A DNA stretch of 64,000 bases from Shigella phage B2. The position numbers were made by a program, and so were the translations under genes. The notes under the pieces were generated by a model. It was not told the origin of the DNA. It searched no databases and worked only from the letters and a program-made list of their open reading frames with translations. The stretch lies in the sequence record OM858838. One strand, given 5' to 3'. This document shows positions 62,536-63,950 of the stretch, one piece after another (positions within the stretch are counted from its first letter, which is position 1; every line of letters starts with the position of its first letter).

Positions 62536-62961
62536 ATGGCACTGTCCGATAAGCAAAAAGAAGCTGTAGCAATCGTTAAAGACCTGATGTTGAACTCTGG
62601 TCATAAAGTAATTGCCGTAGTTGGTGTTGGTATGTTGGACCATCTGTCCCGAGCTAGCCAGACTCCTCGTGAGTTGCTGGAAGAAATGGGCAAAGAAATT
62701 GCCGATAGCCATGACCACAAAGCTGCTGGCTGCACCTGTCTGGGACGTCACCAGTTTGCTTTGGATGTTCTGGACCACCTGGAAAAACAGAAATTCAATG
62801 ATGAAATCATCATGGAAAATCTGGATACCGCTCTCCACGCATGGCATGAGTTCGAAGAGAACTTTGGTCGTGCTCCGACCGTAACGTATGTTGAATCTCA
62901 ATATACGCTGCCTACTGGCGTTGCAGGTGTGTTCTTTATCCATCCTGCTGCACAGAAATAA
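62536..62961 (+). CDS. hypothetical protein, host-like codon usage
   Basis: Start at ATG 62536 (MALSDKQKEAV...) just after upstream stop. Confidence 0.45.
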   Translation: MALSDKQKEAVAIVKDLMLNSGHKVIAVVGVGMLDHLSRASQTPRELLEEMGKEIADSHDHKAAGCTCLGRHQFALDVLDHLEKQKFNDEIIMENLDTALHAWHEFEENFGRAPTVTYVESQYTLPTGVAGVFFIHPAAQK

Positions 62962-63019
62962 TTCACCCTTGGGGGCTTATTAGTCCCCGTAATACCCACA
63001 TCTGAAAGAGGAACCTATC

Positions 63020-63469
63020 ATGGGTTTATTTGGTTTTGGTAAAAAGAAAGTTAGCCAGAAAGTAGAACAAATGCGTGCTACTGCGGGCAAACTGGAAAGT
63101 AAAGATACTGTTGAAGCCGGTATCGCTGTAATGGTTGGTGTGGCATTTGCTGACAAATCCTGCTCCGATGAAGAAATCGAAATTCTGGAAAACGTCATTG
63201 AATCCGATGACACCTTTGCAGAATGGCGTTCTGAAACTCAGGCAATGACCAATAAATGGATTGCCAAATTCCAGAAATTCCATCGTGGTGCAATGATGGA
63301 TTTGGAAAAAGAGTTCAACGACCTGAAAGGTGACCCTGCTGGACAGAAACGTGCTCTGCTGTGCGGTATCGCTGTAGCAGAAGATGATGAAGGTATCGGC
63401 GCTGAAGAGAAAGCTTTCCTGGAAAAAGTTGCTGGCTGGGCTGGTATTCGTCTGGATACCATGCTGTAA
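63020..63469 (+). CDS. TerB-like protein (tellurite-resistance TerB family)
   Basis: GIAVMVGVAFADKSCSDEEIEIL and ALLCGIAVAEDDEGIGAEEKAFLEKVAGWAGI parallel the two repeat halves of E. coli TerB as recalled. Confidence 0.55.
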   Translation: MGLFGFGKKKVSQKVEQMRATAGKLESKDTVEAGIAVMVGVAFADKSCSDEEIEILENVIESDDTFAEWRSETQAMTNKWIAKFQKFHRGAMMDLEKEFNDLKGDPAGQKRALLCGIAVAEDDEGIGAEEKAFLEKVAGWAGIRLDTML

Positions 63470-63634
63470 ATGGCGCTGAAATTACGAGGAATGATAGCTG
63501 CCGTGCTGTTGTTCCTTGTAATTGCTATCGATTTCACTGGAAAGATGATGTCGATGCTAGCAGACGGCGTATTAGTCATTGCTGTAATAGCAGTGATGTG
63601 GCCTGTATTTAAAGGAGCCAAGAATGTCAATTGA
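63470..63634 (+). CDS. small membrane protein (54 aa)
   Basis: ATG directly after upstream TAA; hydrophobic MALKLRGMIAAVLLFLVIAIDF...; below track cutoff. Confidence 0.3.
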   Translation: MALKLRGMIAAVLLFLVIAIDFTGKMMSMLADGVLVIAVIAVMWPVFKGAKNVN

Positions 63635-63950
63635 AGTAGAAAAAGTTGATGCCTTGCGTAAAGGCTTTGAAGCTATGGTCACTCGACCAGATGCTTTAAA
63701 TGTGGGTGATATTGTTATCATGCACCCTGACCTACCGGGTGGATTTAAATTCCCCGATGAAGACCAACCTGCAATTATTGTAGAGTGGCTCGCTCGTCCA
63801 TTCTATGGACATGAAAAGATGGCGGATGTACGTGAAACCGGTATGCCGCAATCAGCTATGCGCTTTGACTGCGTAATTCTGGTATTGGAAGAAGATGGTG
63901 ATAAAACACCTTGGTTGTTTGATTCCCGTCGCCTGAAAAAAATCGGTTAA
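63624..63950 (+). CDS. hypothetical protein
   Basis: 108-aa ORF with host-like codon usage. Confidence 0.45.
   Translation: MSIEVEKVDALRKGFEAMVTRPDALNVGDIVIMHPDLPGGFKFPDEDQPAIIVEWLARPFYGHEKMADVRETGMPQSAMRFDCVILVLEEDGDKTPWLFDSRRLKKIG

What the first reader, a model, noticed from the sequence alone, without database searches (positions are those of the whole stretch)
62536..63950. TerB-like protein within a host-codon gene block
The 149-aa product has two repeat halves resembling TerB of tellurite-resistance operons, flanked by a small membrane protein and two unknown proteins that all use host-like codons. In bacteria TerB-type proteins belong to stress/phage-defence-associated ter clusters. 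A solitary TerB in a lytic phage could mimic or counteract such a host system.
Basis: partly seen in the sequence, partly recalled or inferred. Interest (0 to 1): 0.55.

Follow-up and report, generated by a model that had tools for sequence, protein, structure and literature searches.

The report
Phage TerB–TciB membrane gene pair
The flagged gene is a real TerB-family protein, but it is one half of a two-gene phage cassette (tciA–tciB, first named in phage P1) that has already been reported in this group of Salmonella N4-like phages and whose function is still untested.

Summary

The window is a virulent N4-like Salmonella phage (Ithacavirus), 97% identical to vB_SenP_UTK0001.

TerB is not solitary. 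It abuts a 54-aa two-helix membrane protein (DUF3927, P1 TciB). This pairing held in 78 of 79 evaluable viral contigs and 16 of 16 intact bacterial loci, nearly all with overlapping or abutting stop and start codons. All of those sit in phages, prophages or phage-plasmids, not in ter operons.

The Klebsiella relative Pylas has the same backbone without the pair, so tciAB is a two-gene insertion. The two "unknown" flanking genes belong to the backbone.

Codon usage of the four genes lies halfway between phage and host, so it is not host-like.

Sister phages carry a TerB only 31-34% identical beside a 96-98% identical TciB.

TerB in these phages was published in 2013 and 2015. The most likely role, by inference only, is inner-membrane protection or superinfection exclusion.

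This is ordinary and already known, with an open functional question.

The parts
63020..63469 (+). tciA: 149-aa TerB-family protein. It has a basic, disordered N-terminal tail with the hydrophobic tip MGLFGF (net +5 over residues 1-28) and an acidic helical domain (net -13) carrying two copies of an A-x-A-D-x5/6-E motif.
63470..63634 (+). tciB: 54-aa DUF3927 protein, predicted to be a two-transmembrane hairpin with both ends in the cytoplasm. Its start codon directly follows the tciA stop codon, in the same frame.
   Evidence: Pfam PF13064 at E=8e-12. PHROG 1470 'TciB-like' at E=6e-24. Two hydrophobic peaks, with K4/R6 and K48/K51 at the termini and D21 and D32 conserved. It is 96-100% identical in sister phages whose TerB is only 31-75% identical.
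62962..63019 (+). Intergenic spacer upstream of tciA, with a Shine-Dalgarno-like GAAAGAGGA and a weak GGGG...CCCC hairpin. It marks the left edge of the two-gene insertion relative to phage Pylas.
   Evidence: Sequence read. Pylas has a 66-nt spacer between the homologous backbone genes and no tciAB. Identity to SP-076 stays at 96% up to 63046 and then collapses.
62536..62961 (+). 141-aa backbone gene of unknown function (PHROG 24045), not part of the TerB module. It has invariant H59, H61, C66, C68, H72 and H81, a possible zinc site.
   Evidence: Found only in Ithacavirus, Pollock and TR2 by tblastn, but its C-terminal half is 32% identical to Pylas_033 at E=1e-10. Alignment. AF2 pLDDT 70 with no fold match.
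63624..63950 (+). 108-aa backbone gene of unknown function (PHROG 22456). It overlaps the end of tciB by 11 nt.
   Evidence: Homologues at 46-48% identity in the Klebsiella N4-like phages Pylas, KpCHEMY26 and MY01. Pylas, the one whose locus was read, has no tciAB there.
63956..63978 (+). Terminator-like hairpin followed by a T-run, closing the DUF5405-141aa-tciA-tciB-108aa run of genes.
   Evidence: The matching upstream terminator-like hairpin lies at 62182-62206.
62223..62534 (+). 103-aa DUF5405 protein, the first gene of the same apparent transcription unit. Its codon usage is typical of the phage.
   Evidence: Pfam PF17399 at E=7e-10. Codon test.

Best explanation
Shown:
- Window 63020-63634 is a tciA-tciB cassette: a TerB-family protein plus a 54-aa DUF3927 membrane protein.
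- This two-gene accessory module circulates among phages of Enterobacterales. Here it is inserted between backbone genes in the middle-gene region of a virulent N4-like Salmonella phage.

Inferred mechanism:
- TciB inserts into the inner membrane as a hairpin with both ends in the cytoplasm.
- TciA is made in step with it (coupled translation). It sits on the cytoplasmic face through its basic and hydrophobic N-terminal tail and through TciB.
- TciA's acidic domain, with the duplicated A-D...E motif that is proposed in TerB proteins to bind divalent cations or a small ligand, acts as the sensing or regulating part.
- Together they make the inner membrane of the infected cell refractory to channel-forming insults such as DNA entry by a second phage, pore-forming colicins or depolarising suicide effectors. 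This protects the infection.
- In short, it would be a superinfection-exclusion or membrane-protection module, echoing the phage-inhibition and colicin-resistance phenotypes of the plasmid ter cluster.
- TerB would be the fast-changing, swappable part and TciB the constant membrane part.
For: Identity:
- Family matches for both genes, colinearity with solved TerB, fold and internal repeat.

Pairing:
- TerB is followed at once by a TciB-like ORF in P1, SP-058, SP-076, Pollock, LIET2, ChrisDB, pSal-SNUABM-04, JLK-2012, LMessi, ST13-OXA48phi12.3, the Actinobacillus phage pPE4 and Arash.
- Searching from the TciB side, 16 of 18 bacterial loci have a TerB ORF ending at the TciB start. The other two are 34-35-aa TciB remnants.
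- In viral contigs, 78 of 79 evaluable loci have TerB directly upstream. In the 73 loci where the gap was scored it is -4 nt (44), -1 nt (25), or 0 to +2 nt (2); the other two show spurious large overlaps.
- A natural in-frame TerB-DUF3927 fusion exists, P0020.

Insertion:
- Pylas has the same backbone without the pair.

Phage-borne, not ter-operon:
- Prophage contexts, with a Q antiterminator upstream and holin/endolysin downstream, or P2-like.
- 232 of 240 plasmid hits are non-mobilizable; those listed are 48-128 kb, a size range typical of phage-plasmids.
- The window has no TerC or TerD.

Functional and under selection:
- dN/dS is 0.04-0.33.

Conflict-type evolution:
- The TerB allele was replaced (31-34% identity) while TciB stayed 96-100% identical in sister phages. 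The Pollock backbone is 52-80% identical but its TerB is 87-95% identical.

Membrane logic:
- Charge and hydropathy profiles.
- Published membrane association of TerB and a TerC-TerB complex, as cited.
- Iyer et al. 2021 proposed that phage-borne Ter components, including stand-alone TerB in Erwinia jumbo phages, serve competition with superinfecting phages (PMC7824862).
Against: - No experiment exists for tciA or tciB in any phage. In P1 all three tci genes are non-essential in a CRISPRi screen (PMC10695390).
- The ter-cluster phenotypes need TerC, TerD and others, which are absent here. Recent work cited names TerC-TerD, not TerB, as the minimal tellurite-resistance unit.
- A TciA-TciB contact is inferred from gene linkage and one fusion, not shown.
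- The TciB aspartates would lie near the periplasmic turn in the predicted topology, away from TciA.
- Pseudomonas and Vibrio phage TerBs lack TciB, so TerB can act with other partners or alone.
Confidence: 0.4

Rival explanations
1. Anti-defence decoy. Phage TerB mimics host TerB-domain sensors (the ter cluster, Shango SngA, Bunzi BnzA, Dionysus DinB) and jams their signalling or membrane surveillance, so the phage escapes those systems.
For: TerB domains occur in validated defence systems whose mechanism is thought to be membrane surveillance. The TerB allele is swapped or fast-evolving next to an invariant TciB, as expected for a protein at a conflict interface. The module sits among early or middle genes of virulent phages.
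Against: No match to any PADLOC model at a meaningful level; the best is E=0.027 to an unrelated model. The module always brings its own membrane partner and is just as common in temperate prophages and phage-plasmids, where it would be carried by the very host it would disarm. Its distribution was not compared with the presence of ter, Shango or Bunzi in hosts.
Confidence: 0.15
2. Lysis-timing control. TciAB stabilises membrane energisation or interacts with the holin, so that lysis is not triggered too early.
For: In lambdoid prophages and small temperate phages the pair lies between the Q antiterminator and the holin/endolysin genes, in some cases directly before the holin.
Against: That position is the usual cargo slot of lambdoid phages. 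In the window phage, P1, P2-like prophages, jumbo phages, LIET2 and an E217-like contig the pair is nowhere near lysis genes.
Confidence: 0.15
3. Metal, tellurite or oxidative-stress auxiliary gene, as the name suggests. The pair buffers or senses divalent cations (Mn, Zn, Ca) in the infected cell.
For: Acidic residues of the duplicated motif are invariant. The host ter operon responds to Zn and Mn, and TerC-family proteins handle metals. A Vibrio N4-like phage carries TerD-TerD-TerC-TerB together.
Against: There is no TerC, TerD or TerE here. A virulent phage gains little from tellurite resistance. Authors of related genomes judged a lone terB unlikely to confer resistance.
Confidence: 0.15
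4. Neutral hitch-hiker with no role in this phage.
For: Non-essential in P1. Absent from the related phage Pylas.
Against: Intact in all Ithacavirus, Pollock and TR2 genomes, which come from different places. Purifying selection, with dN/dS as low as 0.04 at dS 0.67. Coupled gene arrangement preserved across very different phage families.
Confidence: 0.1

Closest known systems
[quoted passage not shown]
   Same: A TerB-family gene of about 141-149 aa is followed at once by a 54-aa DUF3927 gene. Both fall in the same PHROG families (632 and 1470). The TciB motifs D-F-T, L-A-D-G and W-P are conserved.
   Different: TciA is only 29-32% identical and TciB 37-40%. There is no tciC: the next gene is an unrelated 108-aa backbone gene. 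The host element is a virulent N4-like podophage, not a temperate phage-plasmid. The window allele has a 4-residue insertion near residue 20 and lacks the glycine of both A-D-G motifs.
[quoted passage not shown]
   Same: Same length, colinear alignment, all-helical fold and duplicated acidic motif.
   Different: Sequence similarity is weak (E=1.6e-4). The window has no TerC, TerD, TerZ, TerA or TerE. It has a DUF3927 partner instead. DUF3927 hits among plasmids are 232 of 240 non-mobilizable, and those listed are 48-128 kb, unlike the conjugative IncHI2 ter plasmids.
TerB annotated in Salmonella phages FSL SP-058 and SP-076 (Moreno Switt 2013) and 'TciA' in E. coli phage Pollock (Patel 2015)
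   Same: Same locus in the same phage group. The window TerB is 75% (SP-058) and 95% (Pollock) identical. Both papers already pointed out the oddity of terB in a virulent phage.
   Different: Those papers treat terB as a single gene and do not discuss the DUF3927 partner, the allele replacement in SP-076, or the insertion relative to Pylas.
TerB-domain proteins of the defence systems Shango (SngA), Bunzi (BnzA) and Dionysus (DinB)
   Same: A TerB domain working together with membrane proteins, with a proposed role at the membrane during phage infection.
   Different: No profile match in PADLOC. Different partners: a helicase and ATPase, or a four-helix pore-forming toxin. Those are host-encoded, whereas this module is phage-encoded.

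Membership tests
TerB family (Pfam PF05099) | Profile match above the curated gathering score | tested here: met
   32.5 bits against 24.4, E=1.2e-7, covering profile positions 3-108 of 118.
TerB family (Pfam PF05099) | All-helical fold of about 150 aa, like solved TerB-like proteins | tested here: met
TerB family (Pfam PF05099) | Internal duplication carrying conserved acidic residues (A-D-G ... E) | tested here: met
   hhalign of the two halves gives E=3e-6. D45/E52 and D123/E130 are conserved, but the glycine is replaced in both copies of this allele (K46, E124).
terZABCDEF resistance cluster | Co-location with terC, terD, terE and terZ | tested here: not met
   tblastn with phage TerC and TerD finds nothing in the 64-kb window. 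Neighbours are dUTPase, DUF5405 and unknown genes.
terZABCDEF resistance cluster | Confers tellurite resistance, phage inhibition and colicin resistance | not testable with these tools
   This is a phenotype and needs experiments.
P1-type tciA-tciB module | TerB-family gene immediately followed by a DUF3927 gene of about 54 aa on the same strand, with abutting or overlapping codons | tested here: met
   The stop codon ends at 63469 and the start is at 63470. DUF3927 at E=8e-12. Same arrangement in P1, in 78 of 79 viral loci and in 16 of 16 intact bacterial loci.
P1-type tciA-tciB module | Third small gene tciC (35 aa) downstream | tested here: not met
   The next gene is a 108-aa backbone gene shared with TerB-less Klebsiella phages.
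TerB-containing defence systems (Shango, Bunzi) | Match to the system's protein models and presence of the partner genes | tested here: not met
   PADLOC gives no relevant hit for any of six proteins of the block.
N4-like phages (Schitoviridae, Ithacavirus), as carrier | Near-identity to classified genomes, plus the giant virion RNA polymerase and the two-subunit RNAP II | tested here: met
   97% nucleotide identity to vB_SenP_UTK0001 and 91% to FSL SP-058. A 3741-aa ORF lies at 13188-24413. RNAP II genes lie upstream in the SP-058 annotation.

The most novel reading that the evidence does not exclude
tciA-tciB could be a minimal, phage-borne inner-membrane immunity device with a division of labour. 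An almost invariant two-helix TciB would be the membrane effector or anchor. An exchangeable TerB 'cartridge' would set what is sensed or blocked, with alleles at about 30% identity swapped at the same locus between sister phages. Virulent and temperate phages alike would use it in phage-versus-phage or phage-versus-defence conflict. That would also give the first concrete handle on what the TerB domain does in Shango, Bunzi, Dionysus and the ter cluster.
Probability: 0.25. Interest if true: 0.6.

Novelty: already known. Interest (0 to 1): 0.27.

Why it matters
TerB is one of the oldest unexplained 'resistance' proteins, and its domain now turns up in several validated anti-phage systems whose mechanism is unknown. 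The phage-borne tciA-tciB pair is the smallest natural context of that domain: two genes and about 200 residues. It is present in genetically tractable phages (P1, N4-like), so it is a convenient system for finding out what TerB does at the membrane. For this window itself the finding adds nothing new. The gene is already annotated and discussed for this phage group.

Tried and rejected
- PADLOC and NCBIfam scans of the six block proteins gave nothing useful.
- Broad TerB and TciB alignments (A1, A2) were too divergent for the genome scan. A narrower TciB alignment worked.
- The 141-aa neighbour was modelled at pLDDT 70 and has no structural match, so its function stays unknown. It first looked like a third component because it co-occurs with TerB in N4-like phages. 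It has a homologue in TerB-less Pylas, so it was rejected as part of the module.
- The 108-aa gene was rejected likewise.
- The link to lysis genes seen in prophages is explained by the lambdoid cargo slot and is absent elsewhere.
- Capture from a host ter operon was rejected for lack of close bacterial relatives.
- The P1 genome paper (PMC523184) is not held, so P1 statements rest on the GenBank annotation and on my own knowledge.
- No complex prediction of TciA with TciB was possible with the tools.

Full report
**What the window is.** The flagged region and its surroundings are 97% identical in DNA to Salmonella phage vB_SenP_UTK0001 and 91% to FSL SP-058, which is classified in Schitoviridae, Humphriesvirinae, Ithacavirus. 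A 3741-aa ORF at 13188-24413, the size of an N4-type virion RNA polymerase, is present. In the SP-058 annotation the block lies between the two RNAP II subunit genes and the gp24-like ATPase, which is the middle-gene region of N4-like phages. The authors of the related genomes found no lysogeny module. 'Lytic phage' is therefore correct.

**The observation.**
- 62536-62961, 141 aa.
- 63020-63469, 149 aa.
- 63470-63634, 54 aa.
- 63624-63950, 108 aa.

- Pfam TerB PF05099 scores 32.5 bits against a cut-off of 24.4, and PHROG 632 matches at E=1e-42.
- It aligns end to end with the solved K. pneumoniae TerB 2JXU at E=1.6e-4.
- An AF2 model built on 101 homologues has pLDDT 86 and seven helices.
- The 'two repeat halves' are real. 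Profile-profile alignment of residues 32-60 with 110-138 gives E=3e-6. Each half carries an A-x-A-D ... E motif whose acidic residues are invariant or nearly so across the family.

**Codon usage.** I compared each gene's synonymous codon choice with pooled phage genes from the rest of the window and with 32 long E. coli K-12 genes.
- The 141-aa gene, TerB, the 54-aa gene and the 108-aa gene lie about halfway between the two. They are z=+2.5 to +5.7 from the phage expectation and z=-3.6 to -4.9 from the host expectation. GC3 is 0.34-0.46, against 0.30 for the phage and 0.57 for E. coli.
- The four genes upstream (the YadA-like gene, dUTPase, the 57-aa gene and DUF5405) are phage-typical.
- The reference was E. 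coli, not Salmonella.

**TerB is not solitary.** The 54-aa gene that starts at the base after the TerB stop codon is DUF3927 (E=8e-12) and PHROG 1470 'TciB-like'. It has two hydrophobic segments and basic residues at both ends, which predicts a membrane hairpin with both termini in the cytoplasm. Phage P1 has the same arrangement: tciA (141 aa), tciB (54 aa) and tciC (35 aa).

I checked 16 phage loci carrying TerB.
- Twelve have a TciB-like ORF directly downstream. These are P1, SP-058, SP-076, Pollock, Pantoea LIET2, the jumbo phages ChrisDB and pSal-SNUABM-04, lambdoid JLK-2012, LMessi, a Klebsiella phage-plasmid, the Actinobacillus phage pPE4 and Arash.
- The three Pseudomonas phages lack it (PMBT3, AF, Holyagarpour).
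- The Vibrio N4-like phage MS02 instead has TerD-TerD-x-TerC-TerB.

Searching from the TciB side gives the same picture.
- 16 of 18 loci in Enterobacterales genomes have a TerB ORF ending at the TciB start. The other two are 34-35-aa TciB remnants.
- In IMG/VR, 78 of 79 evaluable loci have TerB directly upstream. Stop and start usually overlap by 4 nt (44 loci) or 1 nt (25 loci).
- One cluster of E. coli proteins (P0020) is an in-frame TerB-DUF3927 fusion.

Gene linkage this tight, with coupled translation, indicates that the two products work together. A physical contact was not tested.

**Where the pair lives.**
- The bacterial loci are prophages. Seven have a Q-like antiterminator upstream, and six have holin or endolysin genes downstream.
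- One Pantoea case is NinG-Q-...-TerB-small ORF, and one Serratia case is a P2-like prophage.
- Among plasmids, 232 of 240 hits are non-mobilizable. Those listed are 48-128 kb, a size range typical of phage-plasmids and not of conjugative IncHI2 ter plasmids.
- The window contains no TerC or TerD.
- The particular allele in the window belongs to a small clade. The word-indexed search of 5.8 billion proteins found 13 clusters at 54-95% identity, the long contigs being 52-72 kb. One of them is a different, E217/PhiTE-like tailed phage that again carries DUF3927 next to it.
- The exhaustive HMMER search of 1.84 billion representatives found only 70 relatives at E<=1e-3. The best is 48% identical, and nearly all are stand-alone proteins of 130-215 aa.

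There is thus no sign of recent capture from a host ter operon. The gene pool is that of phages and prophages.

**Insertion and mosaicism.** The Klebsiella N4-like phage Pylas has the same order of genes: dUTPase, a 57-aa gene, a terminator, a DUF5405-like gene, a 136-aa gene, a 66-nt spacer, the 108-aa homologue and the NTPase. It has no TerB or TciB. The 141-aa protein is related to the Pylas 136-aa protein (32% over the C-terminal half, E=1e-10). The 108-aa protein has 46-48% homologues in three Klebsiella N4-like phages. The two 'unknown' neighbours are therefore backbone genes, and tciAB is a two-gene insertion between them.

Within the group the locus is strongly mosaic.
- Against SP-076, identity is 96% up to 63046. 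TerB is then unalignable (31-34% protein identity; SP-076 carries a P1/LMessi-type allele), TciB is 98% identical, and the 108-aa gene is 53-62%.
- Against SP-058, TerB drops to 76-82% nucleotide identity while TciB is identical base for base.
- Against Pollock, the backbone is 52-80% identical but TerB is 87-95%.
- TerB is under purifying selection: dN/dS is 0.04 against Pollock at dS 0.67, and 0.33 against SP-058.

So a functional TerB is repeatedly exchanged next to a nearly constant TciB.

**How it probably works.** All of this section is inference.
- TerB proteins are reported to sit on the cytoplasmic face of the inner membrane and to form a complex with the membrane protein TerC. I saw this literature only as cited.
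- The window TerB has a disordered N-terminal tail with net charge +5 and a hydrophobic tip, and a domain with net charge -13. This fits peripheral membrane binding.
- I propose that TciB replaces TerC as the membrane partner, and that the pair alters how the inner membrane of the infected cell responds to channel-forming insults.
- The plasmid ter cluster gives resistance to pore-forming colicins and inhibits several phages, as summarised.
- Iyer et al. proposed that phage-borne Ter components, explicitly including stand-alone TerB of Erwinia jumbo phages, serve competition with superinfecting phages.
- The allele shuffling of TerB fits a conflict role.
- I put this explanation at about 0.4.

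Rivals:
- a decoy against host TerB-based defences (0.15);
- control of lysis timing, suggested by the position before holin genes in prophages but not elsewhere (0.15);
- metal handling (0.15);
- no function (0.1).

Nothing here can separate them. The only functional datum is that the P1 tci genes are non-essential.

**Comparison with what is known.** TerB in FSL SP-058 and SP-076 was reported in 2013, together with the yadA-like gene. [quoted passage not shown] PHROG-based RefSeq annotation already labels both genes. The finding is therefore already known.

What this analysis adds:
- the lone-terB view held in the N4-like literature is wrong;
- the pair is an insertion into the backbone;
- TerB alleles are swapped beside a constant TciB.

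These are modest, descriptive points. Interest is low to moderate.

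Noticed in passing
window 60460-61449 (+): A 329-aa protein with a signal peptide, collagen G-X-Y repeats and a YadA-type membrane anchor. This is an outer-membrane trimeric-autotransporter architecture encoded by a virulent podophage, and PHROGs calls it a 'tail protein'. It was already noted by Moreno Switt 2013. The relative Pylas carries an SPFH/prohibitin-like gene in that slot instead.
   Followed up: partly
window 62536-62961 (+): The 141-aa backbone protein has invariant H59, H61, C66, C68, H72 and H81 and a strictly conserved C-terminus TGVAGVFFIHPAAQ. This may be a zinc site. The AF2 model has only pLDDT 70 and no structural match.
   Followed up: partly
L003 (P1), L010 (JLK-2012), L008 and L013 (jumbo phages): The tciA-tciB pair repeatedly lies next to tRNA genes. 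P1 has Asn and Thr upstream and Ile downstream. JLK-2012 has Asn, Thr and Gly upstream. The jumbo phages carry it inside a tRNA array. In the window the seven tRNA genes (45107-46341) are far from the pair.
   Followed up: no
L038/L039 2863-3267, 4588-4992, 5069-5461: A Pantoea lambdoid prophage carries three further weak TerB-like ORFs around its TerB-small ORF pair (hmmsearch E=6e-9 to 4e-6). They look like tandem TerB paralogues.
   Followed up: no
P0020 (E. coli PA11, 197 aa): TerB and DUF3927 are fused in one reading frame. This is either a real fusion or a frameshift at the overlapping stop/start. It is compatible with a cytoplasmic N-terminus of TciB.
   Followed up: partly
L017 2001-2456 (Salmonella phage Arash): The TerB homologue is annotated 'structural protein' in this 181-kb phage. 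If that rests on virion proteomics, TerB might be packaged. I did not check the basis.
   Followed up: no
L007 1-2899 (Vibrio phage vB_VpaP-MS02): A 77-kb Vibrio phage (its TerB relative BUCT194 is of similar size) carries an abbreviated ter operon, TerD-TerD-x-TerC-TerB, without DUF3927. So TerB pairs either with TerC or with TciB.
   Followed up: partly
L029 5043-5150; L034 5019-5123: These are truncated TciB remnants of 34-35 aa without TerB in Enterobacteriaceae prophages: decayed copies of the cassette.
   Followed up: partly
window 53400-55000 (+): A run of small ORFs (55-81 aa) has very low G+C (0.26-0.29) compared with 0.39 for the phage. It was not examined.
   Followed up: no
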